A DNA stretch of 64,000 nucleotides, taken from contig CAYSOG010000003.1 of assembly GCA_964432675.1 (NCBI GenBank), positions 14,368 through 78,367 of the forward strand, given 5' to 3'. Below the pieces are notes generated by a model, which saw only the letters and a list, made by a program, of their open reading frames with translations, had not been told where the DNA came from and ran no database searches. The position numbers and the translations under genes are program-made. This document shows positions 13,754-49,407 of this stretch, piece after piece; positions within the stretch are counted from its first letter, which is position 1, and each line of letters begins with the position of its first letter. Source of the stretch: an uncultured Gammaproteobacteria bacterium (GTDB lineage: Bacteria; Patescibacteriota; Microgenomatia; CAYSOG01).

Positions 13754-14965
13754 TTAGTTGCGGTTTTGGCGAAGAAAGGTCGGGATATCAAACTCATCGT
13801 CATCTATATTGCCATTACCATTACTGCCGGTATTTTGGGCACCAACGTCAGCCCCGCTATTGATATTGGCCGGTGGAAAAGGATCATTACTTGTGGGTTG
13901 TATTGTTTCTACCTGCGTTGTTTGCGAGGAAGGCGTAAACACTGGCTGGGTCGGGTTTGGTGAGATTGGTGTCGGTGTACTAGGTTCACGCCATTGGCCT
14001 AAGCGTTGCCTTGTTTCATCAAAGCCAGTTGCAACGACGGTAATTTTTACCTGATCTACCATATTTTCGTCAATTGTCGCACCAAAAATAATATTCGCAT
14101 CAGGATCGGCCGCTTGCTGGATAACCCTAGCCGCTTCATCGACTTCGGTCATCGTTAAGTCATTACCGCCAATAATATTAAAGAGTATGCCACGTGCCCC
14201 TTCAATTGAGATTTCCAAAAGCGGTGAAGCAATGGCTGTTCGGGCTGCCGTTTGCGCCCGATTTTCGCCTGTCCCAGTGCCAATACCCATTAACGCAGAT
14301 CCAGCTTCATGCATAATGGCCTTCACATCGGCAAAGTCAACGTTAATCAACCCGGGCATAACGATAAGGTCTGAAATACCTTGCACACCCTGACCTAGCA
14401 CGGAATCAGCCACTCTAAAAGCATCGATGAGAGTCATTTTACGGTCAACGACATCGAGCAATCGTTGGTTCGGTATAACAATGAGCGTATCAACTTTGTC
14501 TTTGAGGTTTTCTATACCATCTTCGGCAGCGAGCATTCTTCGAGTGCCTTCAAATCCGAACGGCTTGGTAACAACACCAACAGTTAATGCCCCGACATCT
14601 TTGGCTATTTTTGCAACGACAGGTGTGGCACCTGTTCCTGTGCCGCCACCCATACCACATGTTAGAAAAACCATGTCGGCACCAGTTAGCATACTTTGGA
14701 TTTTCTCAGCCGATTCCTCTGCTGCTTGTTTGCCGACTTCAGGATCACCACCGGAACCGAGGCCGCGGGTAAAATTTTCACCAATTTGAATTTTTTCAGG
14801 AGCCTGTGAAGTAAGTAAAGCTTGGGCATCAGTGTTTATAGCAATAAATTCAACACCTTGGATATTCTGAAGTTGGATCATGGAGTTTAACGCATTGCCA
14901 CCACCACCGCCTATACCGATAACACGGATTTTTGCAAAACGAGCAATATCTGGTTTGATCAACAT
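13754..14965 (-). CDS. ftsZ: cell division GTPase FtsZ
   Basis: Tubulin signature GGGTGTG, T7 loop NxDFAD, a Pro/Thr-rich linker and a conserved C-terminal peptide (DIPTFLRQ). Confidence 0.95.
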
Positions 14966-15020
14966 ACTGTCAAATGTCCTAAATCGAGTATTTTCTTGTT
15001 CCCCGTAAAATCTGAACTTA

Positions 15021-15062
15021 CCAGTGATTATATCGCAGATAAGCAGGCGATGTATTCACTGG
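15021..15062. repeat. imperfect 16-bp inverted repeat (CCAGTGATTATATCGC-N10-GCGATGTATTCACTGG) in the ftsZ 5' region
   Basis: 13 of 16 positions are complementary. GTGATTATA also recurs at 15064-15072. Confidence 0.5.
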
Positions 15063-15066
15063 CGTG

Positions 15067-15095
15067 ATTATAGCATGCGTGTCTAATTAGCACAA
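15067..15095 (-). promoter_or_regulatory. candidate sigma70 promoter of ftsZ (TTGTGC-N17-TATAAT)
   Basis: The -10 TATAAT is the complement of 15067-15072 and the -35 TTGTGC is the complement of 15090-15095, about 100 nt upstream of the ftsZ ATG. Confidence 0.3.
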
Positions 15096-15120
15096 ACACG
15101 AAATGTGAAGGGAAATAACA

Positions 15121-15150
15121 CCAGTTTTTGATGAGAACTGGCAAACTCAA
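15121..15150. repeat. copy 1 of a roughly 30-bp motif (CCAGTTTTTGATGAGAACTGGCAAACTCAA); copy 2 is at 15583-15612
   Basis: About 26 of 30 positions are identical between the two copies. The minus-strand reading is TTGCCAGTTCTC(A/T)T(C/G)AAAAA(C/T)TG..TTATTT. The copies flank the 15165-15467 gene. Confidence 0.6.
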
Positions 15151-15164
15151 AAAGTACAGCCAAC

Positions 15165-15467
15165 TTAGCTGAAACGTAAAACAGCATCATAGCCGCTTTC
15201 ACCCGGGATATAGGTAACTATCCAGCCGGCTTTATGGTATACCGCGGTTAAATATTTAATAACTGCGTTTTTAGGATATCCGCCCCGCCTAGTCGAATTA
15301 CGGACCACATTCCGCATTGTAGTGAGGCTTATTTCGACTGCAATATTGTCGCTGAGTTCATTGTTATAATATTCAGTCAAAATGCCATCGATATATTGTT
15401 CGACATTCTTTGCATATGCAAGTTCCGCTGCAGAGAGTTGCAGAATATCCAGCTTGTTCACCGCCAT
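15165..15467 (-). CDS. hypothetical 100-aa protein inserted between ftsA and ftsZ
   Basis: A perfect SD AGGAGG lies 6 nt upstream of ATG (cataAGGAGGctgtcATG). It has its own candidate promoter and is flanked by the repeated 30-bp motif. No known motif. Confidence 0.5.
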   Translation of the reverse strand: MAVNKLDILQLSAAELAYAKNVEQYIDGILTEYYNNELSDNIAVEISLTTMRNVVRNSTRRGGYPKNAVIKYLTAVYHKAGWIVTYIPGESGYDAVLRFS

Positions 15468-15526
15468 GACAGCCTCCTTATGCTGTTGATAGCATCAGCC
15501 TGTTACCCTTTCAATGTGCACAGCGG

Positions 15527-15555
15527 ATTGTATCAAACAACACAAAGTAGAACAA
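15527..15555 (-). promoter_or_regulatory. candidate promoter for the 15165-15467 gene (TTGTTC-N17-TACAAT)
   Basis: Read from the minus strand; located about 60 nt upstream of the start codon. Confidence 0.3.
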
Positions 15556-15582
15556 TAACTTGTGGCATTGAGAAATAAAAGC

Positions 15583-15612
15583 AATTTTTCAAGAGAACTG
15601 GCAAACCCAGAG
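15583..15612. repeat. copy 2 of the roughly 30-bp motif (GCAATTTTTCAAGAGAACTGGCAAACCCAG)
   Basis: See copy 1; it carries the shared core GAGAACTGGCAAAC. Confidence 0.6.
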
Positions 15613-15677
15613 GTAACGATAACATGATTATCAGAATTAGTCTATCTGAAAGTAGGTGTATCTTTAACTCTAAGCCG

Positions 15678-20487: not shown

Positions 20488-20568
20488 GTATTTATACTAC
20501 CATGCTTGGCGAGGGTATTGAACCTTGAAGTTATCTAAAAAATGAGGAATTAAAGAGGTTCAAACTAT

Positions 20569-20847
20569 TTATTCGGATTGGTCATTATCAGTGCCAGATA
20601 TTCGACTTTTAAGAAAATCTTCCGATGCTCTTACCAATCTTTCCATCATCTTACTCCGTTCACCTTCTGTCATTTTGTCTAAGCTCCGCGGATCAACGTA
20701 CACAGGAATAGCATGGTCTACTTTTACTCCTTTAATTTGATCAGGCTGGATCAGAATAGTCGGAGGCGTATCTTTTGTGAGCATCCAAATATCAGGCCCG
20801 CTGCCATCTGGGTTTGGAATATACTTGTGACCTTTTCTTTCATCCAT
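20569..20847 (-). CDS. hypothetical protein (92 aa)
   Basis: An ORF in the ftsW-murD gap with no recognisable motif. Confidence 0.35.
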   Translation of the reverse strand: MDERKGHKYIPNPDGSGPDIWMLTKDTPPTILIQPDQIKGVKVDHAIPVYVDPRSLDKMTEGERSKMMERLVRASEDFLKSRISGTDNDQSE

Positions 20848-20984
20848 ACATTATAAGGTAGATACTGTTGTAGTTTTATTATACATCGCTTGTCTAACTC
20901 GGTAACTTACTTTATTGCCTTGAGAGAATAGAGCAAGTAAAATGCCGGGGATGGTATTATCCCCGGCTAAAGGCCTTGTGTTGC

Positions 20985-21305
20985 CTATAAATGTTCCAAT
21001 ATATATTCACGCAGCGATTGGCGAAAACGGCGCATAGCACTGAATAGACTAGCTTCCAAACTTGTGCCTTCAATTATCCAGTAGGAAAATAATACAAGTA
21101 CCCAAATCGCAAAGCCGATATATCCCAATAATGGTAATCGAAATACAGCCTCCATAAGATAAAGGCTAGCAACAAGTAAAGCTACAATACTACGGAAAAG
21201 ATATATTATCCTACGCTCTATACTTTCTGATATTGCCGCGATCCAAAGCGTCCAATAGCCGCTACAAGTGACAATTATAATCAAAAGTGCCGATACTAAA
21301 TCCAT
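20985..21305 (-). CDS. hypothetical small membrane protein (3 TM)
   Basis: Three hydrophobic helices; lies in the ftsW-murD gap. Confidence 0.4.
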   Translation of the reverse strand: MDLVSALLIIIVTCSGYWTLWIAAISESIERRIIYLFRSIVALLVASLYLMEAVFRLPLLGYIGFAIWVLVLFSYWIIEGTSLEASLFSAMRRFRQSLREYILEHL

Positions 21306-21418
21306 CCGTCACCTTCCTTTTACCAGGAACGAGGCAATGTTTTTAAAGTACAGCTGAAACCGTCCAACCACTGAGAAACTCACACAATAAGATTAGATCC
21401 TAATATCGATTACCCTTA

Positions 21419-29026: not shown

Positions 29027-29674
29027 TTAGAGCATCGCTTCAACTTTCAAAACGGCCTCTGCAAAACTTTTTGTCGCGATTGTTGGTTTTTCAGCAGTAA
29101 GCGAGGCCGCGTCTTCTTGTGTTTCGATTAAAACTGTTATGATAGTCGGGTCAACTGCTGAAAAGGCAGACAAAAAAGACATATGGTCGTCGAATACAAA
29201 TTTTTTGCTCATCGAAAGGTTAGCCAAAAATGAAGGAATGTTTGCTGTTTTGTCTTTATAAACGTAGAATTTATCCTTATCTAATAGCTTTTTATCTAAA
29301 AGTGGCTGCATTTTAGCAAATTGCATCTTTTCTTCACCTTGGGAATAAATATAGACTTCTCCTAGCGTTGTAAGCTTGCGTAATCCGTCTTCAACTCCAG
29401 GATAATAGTATGTTGTAAACGGCAGCCGGTAAATACCAGCTACAATTGCCTCGATTATACCAGCTTTGTTAGCACTCGCAGACAATAACACTTCCATAAC
29501 GCTTTGCCAGGTATAGAAGCCTTCCTTCTCTAATATTTCCCTTATAACCGCACGCAATTGCTCTAACGTAACAGGACTATATGCGTTGACTAGCGCAACT
29601 ATCGCGACCCGAAGCGCTGTTGTATCAATGATTGTATGGTCTATATCAATAATGAAAGCATTATTTTGTGCCAT
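29027..29674 (-). CDS. HAD-superfamily hydrolase
   Basis: ORF 29027..29755; the likely start is the internal ATG at 29674 (MAQNNAFIIDIDHTIIDT), giving the DxDxT motif I. Confidence 0.55.
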   Translation of the reverse strand: MAQNNAFIIDIDHTIIDTTALRVAIVALVNAYSPVTLEQLRAVIREILEKEGFYTWQSVMEVLLSASANKAGIIEAIVAGIYRLPFTTYYYPGVEDGLRKLTTLGEVYIYSQGEEKMQFAKMQPLLDKKLLDKDKFYVYKDKTANIPSFLANLSMSKKFVFDDHMSFLSAFSAVDPTIITVLIETQEDAASLTAEKPTIATKSFAEAVLKVEAML

Positions 29675-30422
29675 GTTGTGTTTCCTTAGTCGACTTTTCG
29701 GCGGCGGCAAGATCGTCTTGCGTTGTAACGCCAAACCATTGGTTCGTCTTGCCAAAATCGATCGCCTGTACAGTTTCTCCTTGCTGATTTGCTAACTCGA
29801 TAAGGTCGGTTAAATAATATTCTTGTGTGACTGATGAAGGCGTTATCTTGGTTATATTGGCAGCAAACCACTGTTTTTGGAAGATGTATAGCCCAGGATT
29901 AACTTCGTTAATAAGCCGTTGTTCATCATTTGCATCTTTTTCCTCGATAATTGCTTGCACATTGCCTACCTTGTTCCGAATAATTCGACCTTTTCCCAAT
30001 GGATTAGTAACTTGCATGGTCGCCATTGTAATAACTGCATTACCATTGTTGTGAACCTCGATAAGCGCTTGATAAGTCGTTTGATCTACAAACATCGCAT
30101 TATCTGCATAAAGGATAATAATATGCTCAATAGCTTTGCCTAGCTTTGGCAGTGCATCGGAAGCTGCTGCTGCAGTACCATAGTGCTCCCCCTGGATAAC
30201 AAAGTCGGTGCTTGAGAATTTTCTGACTGCCGCTTCTACAAGTTCGGCTTTGTATTTGATAACCGTAATGACTTGCCCGAGATTGAGCAATGCTAACGTG
30301 TTGAGAGAATAATAGAGCAGCGGCTTACCATTTATTTCATGCAATACTTTTGGTAGTTCCGACTGCATTCGGGTCCCTTTTCCTGCGGCAAGTACAATGG
30401 CAGCGTAGTTATTTTTACCCAT
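29661..30422 (-). CDS. sugar-1-phosphate nucleotidyltransferase (GlmU N-terminal-domain type, no acetyltransferase domain)
   Basis: LAAGKGTRM signature, a GT-A-like fold and a length of about 250 aa. Confidence 0.7.
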   Translation of the reverse strand: MGKNNYAAIVLAAGKGTRMQSELPKVLHEINGKPLLYYSLNTLALLNLGQVITVIKYKAELVEAAVRKFSSTDFVIQGEHYGTAAAASDALPKLGKAIEHIIILYADNAMFVDQTTYQALIEVHNNGNAVITMATMQVTNPLGKGRIIRNKVGNVQAIIEEKDANDEQRLINEVNPGLYIFQKQWFAANITKITPSSVTQEYYLTDLIELANQQGETVQAIDFGKTNQWFGVTTQDDLAAAEKSTKETQHGTK

Positions 30423-31650
30423 GATAACCTAATTTTTCCAGTATATCGGCAGCAATTTGTTTTTCATTCCACGGAAGTTCTTTATCACCAATTGATAATG
30501 ATTTTTGGCTGCCCTTACCAAGAAGAGCAACAATATCACCACGTTTTGCGATGCTAAGGGCTGCTTTCATCGCGTTATACCGATCGGGAATTTTGGCGAA
30601 AACATGGCCGTTTAACTTTTGGGATGACAGCTCGCTTATTCCGACCTCTTTCGCACCAGCCTCTAAACATCCAGGAACTATTTGGCTAATTATATCATTG
30701 ACATCTTCTGAGGCCGGGTCATCGGCAGTAACAATGGCAATATCGGCATTTTCGGCTACCATTTTGCCAGTAATCGGCCGCTTCGTTTTGTCACGCTCCC
30801 CGGCTGAGCCAAACATTGCAATAAGCCGGCCTTTCGTTTGTGTCCGCAAAGCCTTGAGGACCTGCTCGGTCGCATAGGGTGTATGGGCAAAATCAACGAA
30901 GACCTTAAAAGATTGTCCAGCGCTAACCTCATCTAACCTGCCTTCGACCCCTTGAAACGACGAAAGGGTTTGTTTGATATTGGCCTCTTTTACACCAAGT
31001 TCCCTCGTCATTGCTGCTGCAGCCAACGCATTTTGCATATTGTAGGCTCCGGGCAACCTGATCTGGAGTGGAAACGTTACTGGATTGGTTTCGGCGCGAT
31101 TGGTAAGGCCATAGGTGATTGTTTTGCCCGCAATTGTTTCCGCCGATAAAGCTTTATACCAAGGGCCGTCGTTGTTTATGACAGCAACTTTTGTTCCCCG
31201 GAACAATTTTGCTTTGGCTTTAACGTAACGGTCAAATGTTTTATGGTAGTCAAGATGTTCATGCGTGATGTTTGTCAAAACGCCACCGTAAAAGTTGCAG
31301 CCGGTTAATCGATTTTGGTCCAGACCATGGCTTGTTGCTTCAACGACTGCGTATGTACATCCCTGGTCAACCATTGTCCGTAGCAGTTTTTGAAGCGCGA
31401 ACGGATTTGGTGTCGTGACGTGTAATCCAAGCTGTATAACATCATCACCGACTTTAGCGCCAACTGTACTAATAAGGCCAACATTTTTGCCAGCATGAAG
31501 CAACACTTCGTAAATCATATTGGCTGTCGTGGTTTTGCCGTCTGTTCCAGTAACGCCTATAACAATAAGTTTTTTTGCAGGGTACCGGTAAAAAGCCACC
31601 GCACCAAGCGCTACTAAGTAATGGTAGATATTCTTAAGTGATTGGAACAT
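30415..31650 (-). CDS. murE: Mur ligase family protein, MurE-like (DFAHTP motif) but lacking the usual N-terminal UDP-binding domain
   Basis: P-loop GVTGTDGKTTT about 35 aa from the start; VDFAHTP (MurE DYAHTP-type, not the MurF DDSYNAN-type); 411 aa. Confidence 0.65.
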   Translation of the reverse strand: MFQSLKNIYHYLVALGAVAFYRYPAKKLIVIGVTGTDGKTTTANMIYEVLLHAGKNVGLISTVGAKVGDDVIQLGLHVTTPNPFALQKLLRTMVDQGCTYAVVEATSHGLDQNRLTGCNFYGGVLTNITHEHLDYHKTFDRYVKAKAKLFRGTKVAVINNDGPWYKALSAETIAGKTITYGLTNRAETNPVTFPLQIRLPGAYNMQNALAAAAMTRELGVKEANIKQTLSSFQGVEGRLDEVSAGQSFKVFVDFAHTPYATEQVLKALRTQTKGRLIAMFGSAGERDKTKRPITGKMVAENADIAIVTADDPASEDVNDIISQIVPGCLEAGAKEVGISELSSQKLNGHVFAKIPDRYNAMKAALSIAKRGDIVALLGKGSQKSLSIGDKELPWNEKQIAADILEKLGYHG

Positions 31651-31730
31651 TAGCTAAATTATAGCGTACATAATAAGTGATAGCGAGTAAAGCTGAAGAA
31701 AAATGTAATGAAAAAATGCGCAATTTAGTG

Positions 31731-31780
31731 CTTTAAATAAAAAGGGGCGGGCCATCGAGATAATCACGACAGCCCGCCTT
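31731..31780 (-). terminator. rho-independent terminator read on the minus strand (GGCGGGC stem, TTTTTATTT tract)
   Basis: Stem formed by 31744-31752 and 31772-31778, with a T-tract on the minus strand. It lies between the GC-rich basic-ORF segment and murE. Confidence 0.5.
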
Positions 31781-32271
31781 TGAAATAACAAATACTACAA
31801 ATAGTAATTCCGAGGGTAATCAATACCCGGCCCTTGTGGTGTTCCAGGACCGGAAGGTCCACTTGGTCGTCTGGGTACCCTTATTGGTTGTGAGGGTCCA
31901 ACAGGTGGCGATGGACCGGTTGGCTTGGGGGACGGTGGTAGGGTTACCACATTTTACTCCTCAGCCATTTTTGGTGATACTACACGACGCATTTCGCGTC
32001 GCTGTTGCCTCGCTTCTTGCCGGTTACGCTTTTTGGTTGCCGCAACATTCGCCTTCCGAAATTGTTTATGTGGCAACTTATGCGGTGTGGCTGATTTAGC
32101 CATTGGTCATAACCACCATTATTGCTGCCGTTGTGCGGCTTTAAGTGAACCCTTGCGTAGCCGTTGCTCACGACGGTTCAACTTCTTAAGCTGCTTTTCA
32201 GAAAGCTTTCGATTGTTACCATTTTGGGCGTTAACCAGGCTCTTCTGGGCTTGGACCAAGGCATTGTCTCC

Positions 32272-32460
32272 TTATCTGACTTCGAAGATGTGGCCCACAC
32301 TCATCGATAAGCGATTTTGACCCAATAAGCGAGTAGCTACCAATTCCTGAGGCGATGACGGTGGGAGCGAAAAAACGTATTGTTCCGCATAGTGATTTTG
32401 GATAACCTGCCTTCTCGCACTTTTATGCCGTTTCTTGCGGCATCGTTTATGGGTGCTCAC
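32272..32460 (-). CDS. basic mini-ORF B (VSTHKRCRKKRHKSARRQ..., 62 aa) with a perfect SD
   Basis: GTG start directly after the TAG of ORF A, with AGGAGG 9 nt upstream; see the parent feature. Confidence 0.3.
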   Translation of the reverse strand: MSTHKRCRKKRHKSARRQVIQNHYAEQYVFSLPPSSPQELVATRLLGQNRLSMSVGHIFEVR

Positions 32461-32775
32461 CTATATTTTCCTCCTTAGGAAGTTTTCTTCGGGGGTTTGG
32501 TTCGTTTTGGTCACCCATTGTCGTCGTGGTCGTTCAGGTACCACTGGAAGCGCTTTGCCCGATTGCAATGCCACATTACCATTGTTAACAATACCGCCGG
32601 TAAATGCATATGTGAGTGGATCCTGCGATATCGGCTCAGGCCGTCGCTGGCTCTTTGGTCGCTTGGGCTGCACCTTTGACTTTGACCTTTGCGGTTTCGG
32701 TCGACGCCATCGAGCCTTCTGGTTTTTCCCTGACAATGCTTTCACCTCAACGTTAAGATGCCAAATTTGAGGCAA
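32461..32775 (-). CDS. basic mini-ORF A (104 aa, KARWRRPKPQRSKSKVQPKRPKSQRRPEP...)
   Basis: TTG or GTG start with no clear SD; see the parent feature. Confidence 0.25.
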   Translation of the reverse strand: MPQIWHLNVEVKALSGKNQKARWRRPKPQRSKSKVQPKRPKSQRRPEPISQDPLTYAFTGGIVNNGNVALQSGKALPVVPERPRRQWVTKTNQTPEENFLRRKI

Positions 32776-32828
32776 GTTACATACCCGTTTTAATGCCGCC
32801 CTCCTGCTGCAGCAAGCTTAAACATGTA

Positions 32829-32875
32829 GTGCCTCAGGATAGCAGCAAAATACCTTTGCAGTCATCCTGAGGCAC
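32829..32875. repeat. perfect 12-bp inverted repeat GTGCCTCAGGAT-N23-ATCCTGAGGCAC with a nested GCAAA/TTTGC hairpin in the loop
   Basis: Seen directly; located in the divergent region between ORF A and the GNAT gene. Confidence 0.6.
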
Positions 32876-33092
32876 CCAAAATAAAAGACAGCCCACTTTA
32901 CACTACCCTTCCAGGCCTTATTTCCTCGATACTACTATCTTTTAAATGTGCAAGATCATGAGACGAGGAGCTTAAAACATACTCGTCTCTTAGCTCTAAA
33001 TTGCAAAAAAACTTCTCTCAACTAGGTGTGGAGAAGAAGTGTTTCGTTTATTATGACGTATGATACAATAGCAGTCAAGCAAATGCAACACT

Positions 33093-33581
33093 ATGGGGCT
33101 TGCCATTACAAAAAGCAATCGCCATAATATAAATGTAGATAATATGATTGTTTTAGCCAAATTAGCCGATATTTCCATTACAGACCAGATAGCATCGCAG
33201 ATATATACCCTGTTGCAGCAGCTCTCGCCTCGAGCAAAACAGCTTACTACCGACACATTAAATGGGTTAATCAAGCAACCTGGAGTACATACATTTGTGG
33301 CCCAAGACAATGCCACTATAATTGGTATTGTTTCCTGTGTTATTGCAGCCTTACCGCTTAAAAAGATTATGTATATCGAAGAGCTTGTTGTGGATGAAAC
33401 ATACCGAGGCCAGGGTATCGGCAAAAAATTACTCGAGCAGACATTAGCATTGGGTAAACAAGAAGGGGTAACGGAGGTTGATCTTACCTCAAACCCTAGC
33501 CGAACAGCAGCAAGGGCGCTCTATGAAAAATTAGGCCTGCAAAAGGCCCATACTGACTGTTTCCGATTGATTATCGAATAA
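33093..33581 (+). CDS. GNAT-family N-acetyltransferase
   Basis: Acetyl-CoA-binding motif A (VDETYRGQGIGKKLLEQ) and motif B (ARALYEKLGL). Confidence 0.8.
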   Translation: MGLAITKSNRHNINVDNMIVLAKLADISITDQIASQIYTLLQQLSPRAKQLTTDTLNGLIKQPGVHTFVAQDNATIIGIVSCVIAALPLKKIMYIEELVVDETYRGQGIGKKLLEQTLALGKQEGVTEVDLTSNPSRTAARALYEKLGLQKAHTDCFRLIIE

Positions 33582-33643: not shown

Positions 33644-35329
33644 TTATTGCGTTGGGGTAATTCCCCAGTATGCAAAGAGCTCTTTTGCGACATCGTAAAA
33701 AACAGGTTCGGCCGTTAGCGCGCCATGTTCGCCCCCAACTGGTTGTTTCATCCTCACAAGCATCACAAACTTCGGATTATCCGCAGGTCCAAAGCCAATA
33801 TACGATGCGTCAACATTACTATCAGAGTCATAATGGCCGGCTATTGCGACCTGGGCTGTCCCTGTTTTGCCAGCAAACCAAAAACCAGCTGGCTTGTATA
33901 AGCGCTTCGCTTCGCTATTTTCAACTACATATTCCAAAAGCTGGGTCATTTTTTTGGAAGTCTCTTCTGTAATTACCTGCTGAATAACCTTGGGCTTAAT
34001 ATCTATTTCGCCAGTACTTGTAATAATTTTTTTTACAACATGAGGTTCAAGCAATTTGCCGCCGTTGGCTATCGCAGCTTCAGCCCGCACTAGTTGGATA
34101 GGCGTGACGGCAATACCCTGGCCAAATGTAGCCGTAGCATAATCTATTGGATACCATTTATCTTTTGGCCGGAGTTGAGCAACTTGCTCGTCTTCAAGGT
34201 CAATATTGGTACTTTTACCGATGCCGAAGTTATTTAAATACTCATACAACTTATCACGGCCAAGCTGCTCACCAACGTAGATCATACCGTTATTATCGGA
34301 ATTCTTGACAATATCTGACATTGTTTCGTTTTGACGGTAAGTATTGTCCCAATTGTGGATAACACTACCACTAATCTTCCTTGGTTCATCGGTACACGGA
34401 CAAACAGAATCAGGTTTGACCGCGCCGGCGTCAATCGCTGAAGCCATTACGATTGTTTTGAACGTGGATCCAGGTTCATATGTATCGGAAACAATCGGAT
34501 TTGGATAACTGCTTGCATCAGCCTTATAATAGGTTGCCGGTTCGTAGGTTGGATATGAAGCCATTGCTAAAATGCCGCCTGTATTTGGGTCCATAATCAC
34601 AATATCCCCTGATTTGGCATGGAACTTTTCAACGCCTAGCTTAAGCTTTTGCTCAGCAATAAACTGGATTGTGCGGTCAATGTTGAGCACCAGGGTATTA
34701 CCTCGGGTCGCCAAAGCTTCTTGGGCCTGCGCCGTTAGAATTGGACTACCAAACACGTCCGTTTCCTGCGTCACAAACCCTTCATTGCCGCTCAATTCAC
34801 GGTTGTAATACCCTTCGAGGCCAAAGTATCCTTTATCCTTGCCCGCATCATCTTTTCCGACAAACCCTAAAACGTTTGCCGCCATTGAAGCTTCAGGGTA
34901 GAGGCGGCGCTCCTGTCGATCAAAGCCAATGCCTGATAAGTGGAGTTGTTCAATAGTGTCCTTCGTTTGAACCGAAACTGGCGCCGCCAACGGTATCCAA
35001 TCTAAATTTTGGCTTAGTTTTGCGGATATAGAAGCCTCAGGCACTTCTAATAAGGGTGCCACAATTTTTGCGAGGCTATCCTGATTTGTTGTATTTTTCT
35101 TATCAACGAATGGCAAATAGGAAAGTTGGCTTGCTACTAATATTGAGCCATCTGAAAAGAGGATGCTGCCACGTTGTCCAATCGACTTTGTGGTTGTAGT
35201 TTTTTCACTTTCCGCTTTTGCCTGTAGTGTATCGGCCTTAACAACCTGCCAATAAAAAAGGCGTACAACAACGCCGAAAAACAACAGTAACAGAAAGCAT
35301 TTCAAAAACGATGCCCGCCAAGGTATCAT
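33644..35329 (-). CDS. ftsI: class-B penicillin-binding protein (transpeptidase), FtsI/PBP2-like
   Basis: N-terminal TM; SxxK (GSTFK), SxN (SDN) and KTG (AGKTGTA) motifs; lies downstream of ftsL in the dcw cluster. Confidence 0.8.
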   Translation of the reverse strand: MIPWRASFLKCFLLLLFFGVVVRLFYWQVVKADTLQAKAESEKTTTTKSIGQRGSILFSDGSILVASQLSYLPFVDKKNTTNQDSLAKIVAPLLEVPEASISAKLSQNLDWIPLAAPVSVQTKDTIEQLHLSGIGFDRQERRLYPEASMAANVLGFVGKDDAGKDKGYFGLEGYYNRELSGNEGFVTQETDVFGSPILTAQAQEALATRGNTLVLNIDRTIQFIAEQKLKLGVEKFHAKSGDIVIMDPNTGGILAMASYPTYEPATYYKADASSYPNPIVSDTYEPGSTFKTIVMASAIDAGAVKPDSVCPCTDEPRKISGSVIHNWDNTYRQNETMSDIVKNSDNNGMIYVGEQLGRDKLYEYLNNFGIGKSTNIDLEDEQVAQLRPKDKWYPIDYATATFGQGIAVTPIQLVRAEAAIANGGKLLEPHVVKKIITSTGEIDIKPKVIQQVITEETSKKMTQLLEYVVENSEAKRLYKPAGFWFAGKTGTAQVAIAGHYDSDSNVDASYIGFGPADNPKFVMLVRMKQPVGGEHGALTAEPVFYDVAKELFAYWGITPTQ

Positions 35330-35560: not shown

Positions 35561-35716
35561 TTAATTTGACAGGAAAAGCTGGGCTATAGAAACACCGACC
35601 GCAATGATAACCACTGCTGTCAGTATAAGGCGTATACTTCTTAAAGAATGTTTCGTTTGCGGCATCTCAGCTGCCATTGCCTTGTATTTTTTTGATTTTG
35701 TTTTGTATGATTTCAT
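35561..35716 (-). CDS. ftsL: FtsL-like N-terminal fragment (basic cytoplasmic tail plus TM; 51 aa)
   Basis: Manual translation gives MKSYKTKSKKYKAMAAEMPQTKHSLRSIRLILTAVVIIAVGVSIAQLFLSN, ending at TAA (35561-35563). Its ATG overlaps the rsmH stop (ATGA). Not in the ORF track because it is under 60 aa. Confidence 0.45.
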   Translation of the reverse strand: MKSYKTKSKKYKAMAAEMPQTKHSLRSIRLILTAVVIIAVGVSIAQLFLSN

Positions 35717-36645
35717 ACTTTTTCAAAAACTCGCAGTTTCGCACTACGTGACCTTGGATTTTGCATTACTTCAGCTTCTGTGGCTACAATCGGTTTTTTC
35801 GTTAATACTGTACCCTGCTGCTTTTCTTGCCATGTAATAAATTGTTGTTTCACTACTCGATCTTCGAGTGAGTGAAAGCTTATGACGGCCATAATGCCTT
35901 TGGCATGTAAAATTTCTAATGCCTGCGGTAGTGCATTGCGTAACGCATCGAGCTCGAAATTTACCGCAATTCGCAATGCCTGGAACGTCTTAGTTGCAGC
36001 ATTTATTTTTCCAGATCGCTCACCGACTGCATCGGCAATAATATGTGCCAGCTGCGCTGTCGTCGTAATTTTTTGTCTACTTCTTGCCCGACTAATCGCT
36101 TGCGCTATGTGTTTCGCCCTTGGTTCTTCGCCAAATTCTTTTAATAATCCTACCAATTGCTTTTCAGACAAAGTATTGACCAAATCCGCAGCAGTCAGAC
36201 CAAATTTCTTATTCATGCGCATATCGAGCGGTCCGTCGAAGCGGAAGCTAAATCCCCGGCGAGGCTCGTTTAGCTGGTATGACGAAACGCCCAAATCGAA
36301 CAAAATGCCATTCGCTTGCATAAAGTCGTTTTTTTGTGCAACCGCTAAGAGATCTTCAAATGATCCTTCAACAACCTTCACTGTTGAAAAATCGTTTAGC
36401 CATTTTTTTGCTTCAACAATAGCATCCTGATCGAAGTCTATTGCCAAAATGCTAGCCCCTTTTTCTGCCAGCGCCCTCGTATGGCCACCACCGCCAAGTG
36501 TTGCATCAATGATTTTCGATCCTTCATGCGGCTTAATTGCGGCTAGGACTTCATGTAAAAGGACTGGTGTATGGTACGCCTCATCATTCAAGTTGCTTTG
36601 CATACGTCTCCCAATTTCCTTGTTCCCAAATTTCAAAGTGGTCAC
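35713..36645 (-). CDS. rsmH: 16S rRNA (cytosine1402-N4)-methyltransferase RsmH (MraW)
   Basis: YHTPVLLHEVL...DATLGGGGHT motif of the MraW family. The likely start is the internal MQSNL. Confidence 0.9.
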   Translation of the reverse strand: MTTLKFGNKEIGRRMQSNLNDEAYHTPVLLHEVLAAIKPHEGSKIIDATLGGGGHTRALAEKGASILAIDFDQDAIVEAKKWLNDFSTVKVVEGSFEDLLAVAQKNDFMQANGILFDLGVSSYQLNEPRRGFSFRFDGPLDMRMNKKFGLTAADLVNTLSEKQLVGLLKEFGEEPRAKHIAQAISRARSRQKITTTAQLAHIIADAVGERSGKINAATKTFQALRIAVNFELDALRNALPQALEILHAKGIMAVISFHSLEDRVVKQQFITWQEKQQGTVLTKKPIVATEAEVMQNPRSRSAKLRVFEKV

Positions 36646-36982
36646 CAGCGCCGATAATCACAATTTGACCAGGCAGTTTTTCAAGCCTGGCAGCCGGTAA
36701 TAACTTTGCCGGAATTACTAGTCGGCCTTGCTCATCGATCTTAGCGACAAAGGCATTACTAAAAACATTACGACGTACTGTCCTGGCATCAGGATCGCCA
36801 AGCGGCGAAGACAACAACTTACCCGACACTTCTTCCCAATATGCGCGGTCATAGCCAAAGATAGCGTCATCAAATCCACGGCTTAAAACGACATCATCGG
36901 TCATTAAAGAATCGCGAATTGCTCGAGGCAATGACACCCTGTTTTTATTATCAATTGAGCCACTATACTGCCCGTAAAACAT
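36584..36982 (-). CDS. mraZ: transcriptional regulator MraZ
   Basis: Duplicated SpoVT/AbrB-like MraZ domains (DxxxR motifs: IDNKNRVSLP and IDEQGRLVIP). Confidence 0.9.
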   Translation of the reverse strand: MFYGQYSGSIDNKNRVSLPRAIRDSLMTDDVVLSRGFDDAIFGYDRAYWEEVSGKLLSSPLGDPDARTVRRNVFSNAFVAKIDEQGRLVIPAKLLPAARLEKLPGQIVIIGAGDHFEIWEQGNWETYAKQLE

Positions 36983-47283: not shown

Positions 47284-49062
47284 TTACTTTACCGTTACTG
47301 ACTTTGCGATATTGCGAGGCTTATCAACATTATTACCCAAGGCTACTGTCATGTAGTACGCTAACAATTGCAATGGGAGAACATGCATAATAGCGCTTGT
47401 TTCACCGATATCGGGAACTTTAAGCAAATAGTCAAAGCTTTCGTTGGGTTTTGAAGCGATTGCGATAACCTCTGCCCCTCTCGTTTTTACTTCAGATACT
47501 GCATTTTCAACATCTGCTTTGACATCATCTTCAGCGATCGCGACAATTACTGGCACACCTTTTTCTATAAGCGTTATAACGTAGTGTTTAAGGTCACCTG
47601 CCGGTAGCGCGTGGGCATGTTTATATGTTGCCTCAATAATTTTAACCATGCCTTCTTTGATAATTTGGAAATTTTGTGACTTGCCTAGAAGAAATATATC
47701 TTTAGCCTTGCTAAGGTGGCGCGCTACATTTTTGATAGCCTCATGATTTTCCCTATCGTGAAGATATAACTCTGTCTCATTGGCAAGGTCAAATAAATTC
47801 GCCACTGCACTTTTATATTTACCAGCGATTGCTTTAGCCAATAAATAGCCAAAGGCAATTTGGGAAGTATAAACTTTCGTTGACATGACACAAATTTCTG
47901 GGCCTGCTTGTGACAAAAATCTGAAATCAGATAACTTTGTCATCATACTGCCAGGCATATTAACGTATGAGGCAATCTTTACCCCTTTGCTCTTGATACG
48001 CTCAAGCACTTCCAAAACATCTGCAGTTTCACCACTTTGCGAAGGTGCTATAACAACGTCACCTTTTTTGAAAAGCGGCAAATATTCCCCGGCATCAGCC
48101 CCAATTAAACTAATTGCGTTAACCTTGCCATAGTGCCGTAAGTAAAAAGCAATTTGGGCGGCTGCGATACCGGCAGTTCCCGACCCAATGGTATAGACAT
48201 TGCCGGCTGACTTTATGGCATCTACAAGGCTCATAAGGGCCTTTTTGTCTACTTTACCTACCTGACGCAAGACAAATGGCGTTTCATGGATTTCTTTGAT
48301 CATAAAATGGTCAAAGTCTTTTTTCTCAACCGTATGGTCGGTAAACGATATTTCTTCGATATGTTTTGCAACTTTTTTATTGGTTGCAAGAGCGAAAATA
48401 GTAATATCTTGGTTTTGGCAAACCACCATTTGACCATTTTCTATAACGATCATTTTTTCAGCATAGGGAGCAAAAGAAAGCGTGTCTGAAGAAAAGAAAA
48501 TTTCATTTGTCTTACTATTTAGGCCAATTACCAATGGTGAGCCATTGCGTGATGCCAAAATATCACCTTCCTTTGTTAGTATGACAATGGTGTTTCGGCC
48601 AGCAAGTTGTTGTGCCGTTTGGCGGAGCGCTTCTTTCAGGTCCAAACCTTCACTAACTTTTTGTTCGATGAAGTGAACAATAACTTCTGTATCGGTTTGT
48701 GTAGAAAATTGATACCCCTTTGCTTCCAGTTTTTTCTTAAGCTCTTGATAATTTTCAACGATACCATTTTGGGCTAAGGTAAATGAGTTATCTGTAGAGG
48801 TGTGAGGATGGGCATTTGTCTGGGTAACGCCACCATGGGTTGCCCAACGAGTGTGGCCAATTGCAACTGATGCGTCTGGCAAATTTGTTAATTCAGCGAG
48901 GTCACCAATTGCACCAACTTTCTTTGTTACAGCAATATTTTTCCCGTGCGATGTTGCAATACCCCATGAATCATATCCGCGATATTCAAGACGTTTTAAA
49001 CCTTCAAAAACTACTGTCGAGGCCTTGTTCGTACTACCAACGTAACCAAATATTCCACACAT
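47284..49062 (-). CDS. glmS: glutamine--fructose-6-phosphate aminotransferase
   Basis: N-terminal MCGIFGY (Ntn Cys), a glutaminase domain and two SIS domains; 592 aa. Confidence 0.95.
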   Translation of the reverse strand: MCGIFGYVGSTNKASTVVFEGLKRLEYRGYDSWGIATSHGKNIAVTKKVGAIGDLAELTNLPDASVAIGHTRWATHGGVTQTNAHPHTSTDNSFTLAQNGIVENYQELKKKLEAKGYQFSTQTDTEVIVHFIEQKVSEGLDLKEALRQTAQQLAGRNTIVILTKEGDILASRNGSPLVIGLNSKTNEIFFSSDTLSFAPYAEKMIVIENGQMVVCQNQDITIFALATNKKVAKHIEEISFTDHTVEKKDFDHFMIKEIHETPFVLRQVGKVDKKALMSLVDAIKSAGNVYTIGSGTAGIAAAQIAFYLRHYGKVNAISLIGADAGEYLPLFKKGDVVIAPSQSGETADVLEVLERIKSKGVKIASYVNMPGSMMTKLSDFRFLSQAGPEICVMSTKVYTSQIAFGYLLAKAIAGKYKSAVANLFDLANETELYLHDRENHEAIKNVARHLSKAKDIFLLGKSQNFQIIKEGMVKIIEATYKHAHALPAGDLKHYVITLIEKGVPVIVAIAEDDVKADVENAVSEVKTRGAEVIAIASKPNESFDYLLKVPDIGETSAIMHVLPLQLLAYYMTVALGNNVDKPRNIAKSVTVK

Positions 49063-49407
49063 AGTCAGTGTTTCTCCTTTTTTAGATAGGTAAAACCAAC
49101 GCTAAACGCCTCCGGTTTTTCCTTCAAAATATAATATGGTGGGATTTGGTAGTTACTTGTAATACTTCTTTGTGGCCTGCTTATTGAAACAAGCTTTTGA
49201 AAGCATACTAAAGATTGGTAACACAACCTAAGGGTTTCCGCAGATACTCCTAGCAGGCTATCACCGGCTAGGGCCCGATTGTCTAAAGTAATTTACTTAA
49301 GACCCCTTTCCTCGTATCCACATCCAATTCCTCTGAATGTGGCCACACGCCTTTAAAAGAACCTCCTTTTCATACCGTTCCCGATTTATTATTGTAAGCA
49401 CATTAAC
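49063..49407 (-). ncRNA. long structured 5' leader of glmS; candidate glmS-ribozyme-like element (unverified)
   Basis: A 345-nt gap in a genome where most intergenic gaps are about 100 nt or less. The minus-strand leader contains ACGAGGA followed by an AAGGGG...CCCUUAGG stem enclosing CCUAGC-N12-GCUAGG, reminiscent of the GACGAGGA core of glmS ribozymes. glmS ribozymes are known upstream of glmS in Gram-positive bacteria. Confidence 0.2.

What the first reader, a model, noticed from the sequence alone, without database searches (positions are those of the whole stretch)
31731..32875. GC-rich 1-kb insert inside the dcw cluster: five same-frame basic/Pro-rich mini-ORFs between a terminator and a perfect inverted repeat
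A segment visibly richer in GC than its surroundings sits between murE and ftsI. On the minus strand a single reading frame runs about 980 nt. It encodes extremely Arg/Lys-rich sequence (KARWRRPKPQRSKSKVQPKRPKSQRRPEP; THKRCRKKRHKSARRQ; KLSEKQLKKLNRREQRLRK; KKRNRQEARQQRREMRR) and ends in a Gly/Pro collagen-like tail (PPSPKPTGPSPPVGPSQP...GPSGPGTPQGPG). The frame is broken by TAG, TAA, TAA, TGA, TAA and TAG. Each break is followed within 0-5 codons by GTG, TTG or ATG, and two of these restarts have perfect SDs (AGGAGG, AAGGAG). Either this is an operon of 46-104-aa nucleic-acid-binding-like proteins, or it is a recently decayed gene for a roughly 320-aa basic, disordered protein. The placement inside an otherwise conserved cluster, the atypical composition, the downstream minus-strand terminator and the upstream 12-bp perfect palindrome with a nested hairpin all suggest an acquired or regulatory module.
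Basis: partly seen in the sequence, partly recalled or inferred. Interest (0 to 1): 0.7.

Follow-up and report, generated by a model that had tools for sequence, protein, structure and literature searches.

The report
Orphan small-protein operon upstream of murE
A 1.35-kb GC-rich unit with its own promoter and terminator sits inside the cell-division gene cluster of a Microgenomates (CPR) bacterium and appears to encode a chain of tiny, very basic or proline-rich proteins; relatives keep the same control regions and slot but carry unrecognisably different coding sequence.

Summary
Minus-strand frame 32775-31795 has six stops (TAG, TAA, TAA, TGA, TAA, TAG). It sits in the most GC-rich 1 kb of the window, between a strong leader hairpin and an intrinsic terminator.

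It is neither a known RNA nor a known protein family, and probably not one decayed gene. All three strong Shine-Dalgarno motifs in the core lie 6-9 nt before a restart codon just after an in-frame stop (0/2000 shuffles reach three). Host genes almost never have SD. The ORFs show strong 3-base periodicity (0/500 shuffles).

A more distant relative (MurE 52-54%) has ftsI and murE 28 nt apart. The closest relatives (MurE 59-64%) all carry a GC-rich segment of about 0.9 kb before murE. Where upstream sequence is available, it has the same promoter, 5' hairpins and SD-uORF. All three, like the window, end in a strong GC-rich hairpin after the last ORF. Their cores cannot be aligned. They hold three SD-led ORFs in different frames, with foreign-like GC3 of 0.67-0.78 against a host value of 0.39.

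Best reading: a clade-specific, separately transcribed micro-operon of orphan basic or Pro-rich peptides, with a conserved expression shell and a hypervariable core. Function is unknown and expression is untested.

The parts
33050..33088 (-). Two overlapping sigma-70-like promoters. P1 is TTGCAT(33088-33083)-17-TATCAT(33065-33060). P2 is TTGACT(33078-33073)-17-CATAAT(33055-33050).
   Evidence: P2 scores 10/12. In alignment A1 TTGACT and CATAAT are invariant in the window, L010 and L014. P1 was read from the sequence.
33004..33045 (-). 5'-proximal hairpin followed by a U7 tract, right after the predicted transcription start. It could be an attenuator or a 5' stabiliser.
   Evidence: A hairpin plus U-run occurs at the same place in the window (z -2.0), L010 (z -3.6) and L014 (z -4.9), with different stem sequences.
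32829..32875 (-). Long leader hairpin with base GUGCC...GGCAC.
   Evidence: -30.7 kcal/mol, z -6.1. The homologous position in L010 (117 nt, z -6.4) and L014 (130 nt, z -8.6) has the same base but unrelated, longer inner stems.
32777..32806 (-). AGGAGG (32806-32801) followed by a possible mini-uORF: ATT 32794 or ATG 32782, ending at TAA 32779-32777, 1 nt before the ORF1 TTG.
   Evidence: Read from the sequence. It is the analogue of the conserved AAGGAG-ATGGTT uORF of L010 (7 codons) and L014 (18 codons). The start codon in the window is uncertain.
32461..32775 (-). ORF1, 104 aa, pI 11.7, 22% R+K, 12% P. Its start is uncertain (TTG, no SD at proper spacing).
   Evidence: Single-sequence AF2 shows no fold (pTM 0.14).
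32272..32476 (-). SD AAGGAGG (32476-32470) plus ORF2 (GTG 32460, 62 aa, pI 11.3). The GTG directly abuts the ORF1 stop TAG.
   Evidence: AF2 predicts two helices at pLDDT 69.
32119..32273 (-). SD AAGGAG (32273-32268) plus ORF3 (TTG 32259, 46 aa, pI 12.0, 28% R+K, 17% Q).
31954..32117 (-). Weak SD GGTGG (32117-32113) plus ORF4 (ATG 32103, 49 aa, pI 11.8, 31% R+K).
31795..31962 (-). SD GAGGAG (31962-31957) plus ORF5 (GTG 31950, 51 aa, 31% Pro, 14% Gly).
   Evidence: Each relative also has a Pro-rich SD-led ORF.
31733..31778 (-). Intrinsic terminator: a 12-bp GC-rich stem followed by CCUUUUUAUUU.
   Evidence: -26.4 kcal/mol, z -4.6. A strong GC hairpin follows the last ORF in L010, L013 and L014 too.
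31648..31663 (-). murE's own -10 box TATAAT (31663-31658), 7 nt before the ATG (31650). This predicts a leaderless murE mRNA. It marks the downstream boundary of the unit.
   Evidence: The TATAAT-6/7 nt-ATG arrangement is kept in L010, L011, L012 and L014 (alignment A2).

Best explanation
Window 31733-33088 (minus strand) is a self-contained transcription unit that was inserted between ftsI and murE in one Microgenomates (CPR) clade.

Layout, 5' to 3': a conserved promoter pair; a structured leader (a 5' hairpin with a U-tract, then a long GUGCC...GGCAC hairpin); a strong SD, possibly with a tiny uORF; five translationally coupled small ORFs (104, 62, 46, 49 and 51 aa); and a Rho-independent terminator just before murE's own leaderless promoter.

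The products would be strongly basic (pI 10.4-12) or proline-rich, low-complexity, probably disordered peptides. The inferred mechanism is that ribosomes load at the leader SD and are passed from ORF to ORF by termination-reinitiation at stop/SD/start junctions.

What is conserved across the clade is the expression shell and the composition of the core (GC-rich, Arg/Lys/Pro-rich), not its sequence. The core therefore either evolves without constraint on its sequence or is repeatedly replaced.

Shown: the anatomy, the non-random SD-start coupling, the codon periodicity, the clade-specific synteny, and the conserved shell around a non-alignable core. Inferred: that the unit is transcribed and translated, the reinitiation mechanism, and any activity of the peptides. 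Nucleic-acid or ribosome binding is a guess from charge alone.
For: 1. SD-start coupling. The sense core has only three strong SD clusters. Each lies 6-9 nt before a start codon that follows an in-frame stop by 0-4 codons and opens an ORF of at least 46 codons. Shuffles give a mean of 0.05 such events, with 0/2000 reaching 3. There are none on the antisense strand.
2. Host contrast. Host genes almost never carry SD: 3-4 of 45 in the window, 1 of 15 in L010 and 1 of 6 in L011.
3. Relatives. SD-led ORFs of at least 30 codons number 3, 2, 3 and 2 on the sense strand of the four loci, against 0.3-0.9 expected each, and 0 on every antisense strand.
4. Periodicity. Three-base periodicity of the SD-led ORFs is 33-72 chi2/kb against 7-11 in the longest open segments of shuffles (0/500 in all four loci). 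The window frame scores -0.028 bits/nt on a host-trained coding model, against -0.115 and -0.121 in the shifted frames.
5. Synteny. ftsI and murE are 28 nt apart in a relative with 52-54% MurE identity (L016-L021). The closest relatives (59-64%) all have a GC-rich segment of about 0.9 kb directly before murE.
6. Conserved shell. The promoter hexamers are invariant, and the 5' hairpin with U-run, the long GUGCC...GGCAC hairpin and the SD-uORF are shared with L010 and L014. A 3' GC hairpin is present in all four loci.
7. Variable core. L010 and L014 have MurE 72% identical and murE DNA 69% identical, with flanks at 68-85%, yet their cores align no better than shuffled sequence. The boundaries are sharp, at the first long ORF's start and the last ORF's final codons.
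8. Not RNA. No Rfam family matches, and folding z-scores in the core are weak.
Against: - No expression data exist.
- None of the five ORFs was ever called as a gene: they are absent from the 15-billion-protein collection that does hold this contig's MurE.
- No homologue was found in any library, so purifying selection cannot be shown.
- The host-trained coding score is below every real gene (-0.028 against 0.066 +/- 0.017, minimum 0.006).
- ORF2 alone shows no periodicity (p = 0.92).
- ORF1 lacks a convincing SD and start.
- Five ORFs sharing one frame (about 1/81 by chance) fits a split longer gene better than independent genes.
- GC3 in the window (0.46) is much lower than in the relatives (0.67-0.78), which could mean this copy is decaying.
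- Only four or five loci support the comparative picture.
Confidence: 0.55

Rival explanations
1. Recently decayed single gene. A basic, disordered protein of about 320 aa, acquired or lineage-specific, was broken by five nonsense mutations. The mini-ORFs are remnants with no function.
For: - All five ORFs share one frame across 981 nt.
- There is frame-specific periodicity and a better coding score than in the shifted frames.
- GC3 and overall GC are lower than in the relatives, as expected for a copy drifting towards host composition.
- The ORFs were never called as genes.
Against: - Three of the four internal restarts have a strong SD at correct spacing plus a start codon; this was never seen in 2000 shuffles.
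- There are no frameshifts.
- Relatives have three separate SD-led ORFs in three different frames and no long ORF.
- No homologue of the stop-removed frame was found.
- The promoter, leader hairpins and terminator are kept intact, which is unusual around a dead gene in a streamlined, densely coding genome.
Confidence: 0.15
2. The unit acts as RNA. It could be a long structured or regulatory transcript, for example a cis-acting leader or insulator controlling murE or separating it from the mraZ-ftsI operon. On this reading the ORFs and SD-like purine runs are incidental.
For: - The conserved parts are all non-coding: the promoter, two leader hairpins with unrelated stem sequences in different genomes, and a terminal hairpin.
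- The unit stays directly upstream of and co-oriented with murE even where the GNAT gene has moved.
- A GC-rich island in an AT-rich genome is a classic sign of a structured RNA.
- Mean folding z over the whole unit is -1.2 to -1.7, against -0.3 for ftsI.
Against: - The strongly negative z-scores are confined to the flanks. Core windows average roughly -0.6 to -0.9 (my mean of the per-window values).
- No Rfam family matches, even at E <= 1-10.
- The cores share no alignable motif.
- Strong 3-base periodicity, and GC3 well above GC2 in the relatives, are coding signatures that an RNA-only element would not have.
- SD-start coupling is found on the sense strand only.
Confidence: 0.12
3. A replaceable cassette slot. 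The conserved shell is a fixed expression platform, and the GC-rich coding core is repeatedly swapped by recombination through the conserved flanks, or kept GC-rich by biased gene conversion at a recombination hot spot. Each lineage would then carry a different, recently arrived set of small genes. This concerns origin and dynamics and is compatible with the best explanation.
For: - The boundaries between conserved flanks and the non-alignable core are sharp, falling at the first start codon and the last codons.
- GC3 is 0.67-0.78 in the relatives' ORFs against 0.39 in their hosts. That should not survive the time needed for murE DNA to fall to 69% identity unless the DNA is young or GC is actively maintained.
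- The ORFs are SD-led in genomes that otherwise lack SD.
- Short-read contigs L011, L012 and L013 all break at or inside the segment, as expected for strain heterogeneity.
Against: - No recombinase, attC-like RYYYAAC/GTTRRRY ends or convincing flanking direct repeats were seen (sequence reading).
- The element is single-copy in every locus held.
- No donor homologues were found in phages, plasmids or viral contigs.
- At this divergence, neutral sequence would be randomised anyway, so non-alignability alone does not require replacement.
- Contig breaks may simply reflect GC coverage bias.
Confidence: 0.18

Closest known systems
Translationally coupled polycistronic small-gene operons (for example ribosomal-protein operons and phage late or lysis cassettes)
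   Same: Short ORFs packed head to tail. Stop and start codons abut or lie 1-5 codons apart. An SD is embedded in the end of the preceding ORF. There is one promoter and one terminator.
   Different: No homology to any ribosomal, phage or other family. The proteins are orphans and are not conserved even between relatives with 72% MurE identity. The surrounding genome hardly uses SD at all.
Integron gene cassettes and replacement-type flexible genomic islets
   Same: A fixed promoter-bearing platform sits in a conserved chromosomal slot. The short coding content differs completely between relatives and has foreign composition. A hairpin lies at the cassette end.
   Different: No integrase, no attI or attC consensus, a single slot rather than an array, and several ORFs per unit. 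The terminal hairpin belongs to the conserved shell in L010 and L014, not to the variable part.
Lineage-specific orphan or intrinsically disordered small proteins
   Same: Composition is conserved (basic, Pro/Gln/Gly-rich, hydrophilic) while sequence is not. There are no database relatives. AF2 gives no fold for ORF1.
   Different: Here there is an elaborate, conserved regulatory shell and a fixed position in the dcw cluster. In the relatives GC3 is strongly non-host, which amino-acid composition cannot explain.
Structured 5' leaders that gate small ORFs (type I toxin mRNAs, attenuators, dual-function RNAs)
   Same: A long stable hairpin sits immediately before the first SD. There is a tiny uORF and a 5'-proximal hairpin with a U-tract.
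   Different: The peptides are hydrophilic and basic rather than hydrophobic toxins. No antisense RNA gene is evident. No amino-acid-specific leader-peptide logic was recognised. The unit is about ten times longer than a typical attenuator.

Membership tests
Known structured RNA (any Rfam 15 family) | Covariance-model match at or near the gathering score | tested here: not met
   Window gathering scan. Region scan at E <= 10: best hit L20_leader at 20.5 bits against a gathering score of 58.7. Relatives: no credible hit.
Rho-independent terminator | GC-rich stem, short loop, and a 3' U-tract on the transcribed strand | tested here: met
   31778-31746 forms a 12-bp GC-rich stem followed by CCUUUUUAUUU, -26.4 kcal/mol, z -4.6. 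The simple pattern scan missed it because of the inner bulge.
SD-led, translationally coupled operon | SD core 4-10 nt upstream of an ATG/GTG/TTG that lies within a few codons of the preceding stop, more often than chance | tested here: met
   Three of three strong SD clusters qualify; 0/2000 shuffles reach 3. The relatives show the same on the sense strand only.
SD-led, translationally coupled operon | Evidence of transcription and translation | not testable with these tools
   No RNA-seq, Ribo-seq or proteomics was available.
Unitary pseudogene of a ~320-aa protein | An intact colinear orthologue or homologue exists elsewhere | tested here: not met
   No hit for the stop-removed frame or for ORF1 alone, apart from a spurious repeat match. 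Relatives carry three ORFs in three frames.
Unitary pseudogene of a ~320-aa protein | Disabling mutations of mixed type (frameshifts and stops) with no restoration of initiation signals | tested here: not met
   Only in-frame stops occur, and each internal one is followed by a start codon — three with a strong SD, ORF4 with only a weak GGTGG.
Integron cassette / attC | Tyrosine-recombinase intI nearby; attC with RYYYAAC...GTTRRRY ends; arrays of cassettes | tested here: not met
   About 20 neighbouring genes at 15.7-40 kb that matched a Pfam family are dcw, aminoacyl-tRNA synthetase or RecO genes (three ORFs there had no Pfam hit). The hairpin ends are GUGCC/GGCAC and GGCGGGC/GCCCGCC. There is a single slot. 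The rest of the window was not domain-scanned.
Diversity-generating retroelement target | A template repeat elsewhere that differs mainly at A positions, and a reverse transcriptase | tested here: not met
   No second copy of any part of the region in the 64 kb by blastn or tblastx. No RT among the scanned neighbours.
IS, MITE or IS200/IS605-derived element | Multiple copies, terminal repeats, and variable insertion sites | tested here: not met
   Single copy in the window and in all held loci. The same chromosomal slot is used in four genomes.
Collagen-like repeat protein | A long uninterrupted (G-X-Y)n run | tested here: not met
   ORF5 has only a few consecutive G-X-Y triplets. No Pfam Collagen hit. 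No tandem repeat by TRF.
Ribosomal, histone-like or phage DNA-binding protein families | A profile-HMM match | tested here: not met
   Pfam, PHROGs, NCBIfam and PADLOC gave nothing below E = 0.01.

The most novel reading that the evidence does not exclude
In one Microgenomates clade, a conserved single-slot expression platform (promoter, 5' hairpins, SD-uORF, terminal hairpin) hosts a coding core that is recurrently replaced or hyper-diversified. The core always consists of GC-rich, SD-led, basic or Pro-rich micro-proteins. This would be an integrase-less cassette or diversification locus embedded in the cell-division cluster of an organism that otherwise translates without SD. It could supply fast-evolving peptides for host or phage interaction.
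Probability: 0.2. Interest if true: 0.8.

Novelty: new variant of a known kind. Interest (0 to 1): 0.55.

Why it matters
CPR/Patescibacteria genomes are tiny and densely packed, and the dcw cluster is among the most conserved gene orders in bacteria. A retained non-host-like unit of 1.3-1.9 kb in exactly that place argues for function. So does its conserved promoter and leader structure.

If the small ORFs are translated, they add a set of orphan, highly basic micro-proteins that standard annotation missed entirely. They would also give a natural example of SD-dependent, reinitiation-coupled translation inside a genome that is otherwise largely SD-free and, in places such as murE, apparently leaderless.

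The unit also splits the dcw operon. It places a terminator in front of murE, and murE carries its own leaderless promoter in every lineage that has the insert.

If the core really is exchanged or diversified between lineages, the locus would be a compact model for how streamlined symbionts keep a small pocket of rapid innovation.

Tried and rejected
- Rfam, at gathering and at permissive E-values, on the window and on relatives: nothing.
- Pfam, PHROGs, NCBIfam, PADLOC and PDB sequence searches of each ORF, of the stop-removed frame and of the relatives' ORFs: nothing credible.
- 5.8-billion-protein search with the stop-removed frame: no hit.
- The same search with the relatives' ORFs concatenated: no hit, but unreliable.
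- Full HMMER search of ORF1 against 1.84 billion representatives: one hit. It is a 1598-aa Ig-like repeat protein matched nine times weakly to the same 47 residues. I judge it to be an artefact of summing over repeats.
- blastn and tblastn against phages and plasmids, and pattern or protein scans of viral contigs: nothing.
- Plus-strand ORFs of 131 and 111 aa, and the 142-aa ORF antisense to the GNAT gene: rejected on coding score (-0.085 to -0.091). The two plus-strand ORFs also had no family hit, and no SD-led ORF occurs on the antisense strand of the core.
- Internal repeats, DGR, IS or MITE: no second copy anywhere.
- Pairwise Smith-Waterman with shuffles between all ORFs of the four loci: nothing survives multiple testing.
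- Flanking direct repeats as att sites or target duplications: only short or AT-rich two-copy matches.
- L009, with 59% MurE identity over a fragment: it has a sigma-factor gene upstream and is unrelated.
- Single-sequence AF2: ORF1 unstructured, ORF2 two helices at moderate confidence. This carries little weight.
- Literature searches: no description of such an element.
Full report
**1. What is there**

Pfam places the window in a long minus-strand dcw cluster. The genes are mraZ 36584-36982, rsmH 35713-36645, ftsI 33644-35329, murE 30415-31650, then a nucleotidyltransferase, murC/F-like, murB, murA, mraY, murD, ftsW, murG, ftsQ and ftsA. A plus-strand GNAT gene (33093-33581) lies after ftsI. 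Between that gene and murE is a 1.44-kb stretch (31651-33092) with no called gene.

The five ORFs (104, 62, 46, 49 and 51 aa) share one frame. The core is the most GC-rich 1-kb window of the 64 kb (49.8% against 41.5 +/- 2.4%) and has the most extreme AT skew.

A 12-bp GC stem plus U-run at 31778-31733 is a good intrinsic terminator (z -4.6). The inverted repeat at 32875-32829 folds at -30.7 kcal/mol (z -6.1).

**2. Is it more than chance?**

The open frame by itself is only marginal. It has 6 stops, against 10 and 20 in the other sense frames, and P = 0.049 in dinucleotide shuffles.

The strong signal is the junction architecture. The sense core contains only three strong SD clusters. Each lies 6-9 nt before a GTG or TTG that follows an in-frame stop by 0-4 codons: AAGGAGG-9-GTG, AAGGAG-8-TTG and GAGGAG-6-GTG. 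A fourth restart has a weak GGTGG. Shuffles give 0.05 such events on average, and none of 2000 reaches three. The antisense strand has none.

This stands out because the genome's own genes almost never have SD. The count is 3-4 of 45 in the window, and several genes have a -10-like box a few nucleotides before the ATG.

The ORFs also show 3-base periodicity well beyond that of the longest open segments in shuffles (33.5 against 6.8 +/- 3.5 chi2/kb, 0/500). On a host-trained periodic Markov model the frame scores -0.028 bits/nt. That is better than its shifted frames (-0.115 and -0.121) but below every real gene (0.066 +/- 0.017). Codon-position composition is atypical: C-rich at position 1 and T-poor at position 3.

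**3. Not a known RNA or protein**

Rfam gives nothing at gathering or permissive thresholds. Pfam, PHROGs, NCBIfam, PADLOC and PDB give nothing credible.

The stop-removed frame finds nothing among 5.8 billion proteins. ORF1 against 1.84 billion representatives returns one hit, a repeat protein, which I regard as spurious. The five ORFs are not in the 15-billion-protein collection, although this contig's MurE is. Annotation therefore never called them.

RNA-folding z-scores are strongly negative only at the flanking hairpins. The core windows average roughly -0.6, my mean of the per-window values.

**4. Relatives**

MurE hits place the organism among Microgenomates-like CPR bacteria.

A relative with 52-54% MurE identity (21 contigs) has mraZ-rsmH-ftsL-ftsI-murE with only 28 nt between ftsI and murE. 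The segment is therefore an insertion relative to that arrangement.

The closest relatives (59-64% MurE identity: L010, L013, L014) all carry a GC-rich segment of about 0.9 kb directly upstream of murE and co-oriented with it. Its GC is 55-68% against 30-40% in the flanks. Contigs L011 and L012 break 86-99 nt before murE, and L011 starts inside the shared 3' block.

Alignment of the window with L010 and L014 shows a shared shell:
- Invariant TTGACT and CATAAT hexamers, plus a second overlapping promoter.
- A 5'-proximal hairpin followed by a U-run, with different stem sequences in each genome.
- A long hairpin with the same GUGCC...GGCAC base but unrelated inner stems of 47, 117 and 130 nt (z -6.1, -6.4 and -8.6).
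- A strong SD. In L010 and L014 it is followed by a conserved ATGGTT uORF.

After the last ORF every locus has a strong GC hairpin. Then comes murE's own TATAAT, 6-7 nt before the ATG, which predicts a leaderless murE.

**5. The cores are not alignable**

blastn and tblastx find nothing between any pair of cores. L010 and L014 have MurE 72% identical, murE DNA 69% identical and flanks 68-85% identical. Even so, the global alignment score of their cores equals that of shuffled sequence.

The conserved-to-variable transitions are sharp. They fall at the start of the first long ORF and at the last three codons plus stop of the last ORF. No ORF pair is significantly similar.

Each relative has two or three SD-led ORFs on the sense strand (10 in total over the four loci against about 2 expected) and none on the antisense strand. 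These ORFs are in different frames, so the single frame is peculiar to the window.

Each locus has a Pro-rich ORF and one or more very basic ORFs with pI 10-12.

In the relatives the ORFs have a classic high-GC coding signature: GC1/GC2/GC3 of about 0.6/0.45/0.67-0.78 against host values of 0.55/0.37/0.39, with GC3-GC2 of +0.19 to +0.25 (0/500 shuffles). The window copy is milder at 0.57/0.46/0.46 against a host 0.51/0.37/0.38 +/- 0.04.

**6. Interpretation**

The evidence favours real, or recently real, protein-coding micro-ORFs organised as a translationally coupled operon with its own promoter, structured leader and terminator. The unit was inserted in the ancestor of one clade and stayed tied to murE. 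I give this 0.55.

The single-decayed-gene reading is weakened by the SDs at every break, the absence of frameshifts and the multi-frame ORFs in relatives. The shared frame and the lower GC3 keep it alive at 0.15.

An RNA-only function fits the conserved non-coding shell but not the periodicity or the GC3 signature (0.12).

The contrast between a conserved shell and a non-alignable core that stays GC-rich needs an explanation. One possibility is a sequence-unconstrained but composition-constrained core, as in disordered proteins, with some force holding GC3 high. The other is recurrent replacement or gene conversion through the flanks (0.18). That second option concerns origin and dynamics and is compatible with the main reading.

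No recombinase, att-like ends, extra copies or donor homologues were found. The homology search for the relatives' ORFs was technically unreliable.

**7. Limits**

Only four or five loci inform the comparison. There are no expression data. The peptide function is a guess from charge. ORF1's start is uncertain. The AF2 models were made without alignments: ORF1 is unstructured with pTM 0.14, and ORF2 has two helices at pLDDT 69.

Noticed in passing
window 31648-31663 (minus); L010 7986-8003; L011, L012 and L014 equivalents: murE has a TATAAT box 6-7 nt before its ATG and no SD, which predicts a leaderless mRNA. The arrangement is kept in four relatives that carry the insert (L013 has TTTAAT ~25 nt before its ATG). 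The insert therefore separates murE transcriptionally from mraZ-ftsI.
   Followed up: partly
whole window; L010, L011: Shine-Dalgarno motifs are nearly absent upstream of host genes: 3-4 of 45 in the window, 1 of 15 in L010 and 1 of 6 in L011. About 8 of 45 window genes have a -10-like box ending 4-12 nt before the start. This suggests widespread non-SD or leaderless initiation in the clade.
   Followed up: partly
window 49151-49362 (minus): A glmS ribozyme (Rfam RF00234, 53 bits) lies directly upstream of the 592-aa ORF 47284-49062. That ORF is one of the few genes with a clear SD (AAAGGAGAAAC).
   Followed up: no
window 30415-31650 (minus): MurE is only 411 aa. Pfam finds the Mur ligase middle and C-terminal domains but not the N-terminal domain. 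The relatives are similarly short (395-413 aa).
   Followed up: no
L011 1-86; L012 1-99; L013 1: Three independent short-read contigs end at or inside the GC-rich segment just upstream of murE. This could reflect strain-level heterogeneity of the core or a GC-related coverage drop.
   Followed up: no
window 33093-33581 (+); L010 9400-9843 (-); L012 1331-1798 (-): The GNAT acetyltransferase gene sits between ftsI and the unit in the window. In L010 and L012 it lies downstream of murE on the opposite strand. This is a local rearrangement around the insert.
   Followed up: no
L010 7568-7688; L014 1304-1421: L010 and L014 share a second conserved block (79% identity) after the GC hairpin, containing a nested hairpin (UUGCAGAAGCAAG...). 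L010 has a further ~310 nt, and L014 ~190 nt, before murE. The window lacks all of this, with only 85 nt between the terminator and murE.
   Followed up: partly
L010 6553-6575: A short tandem repeat (AGTAGCT x3) sits inside the long leader hairpin of L010.
   Followed up: no
window ORF1 residues 28-74 (about 32692-32552, minus): There is a weak resemblance (TYxxTGGxxxNGxV) to the repeat unit of a 1598-aa Ig-like repeat protein (P0121). It is significant only through summing nine repeats. Pfam sees no domain in ORF1.
   Followed up: partly
window 20488-21418 and 14966-15677 (minus): Two other gaps in the dcw cluster hold small unannotated ORFs of host-like composition: 92 aa and a 106-aa hydrophobic ORF between murD and ftsW, and 100 aa between ftsA and the next large ORF (13754-14965, FtsZ-like by eye, not scanned). 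They are not GC-rich and not SD-led, so they appear unrelated to the finding.
   Followed up: partly
window 29027-29755 (minus); L010 10827-11333: A 242-aa ORF with a normal host coding score (0.063 bits/nt) but no Pfam match lies between the nucleotidyltransferase gene and the Mur ligase gene. L010 has a 168-aa gene with no Pfam hit in the same position.
   Followed up: no
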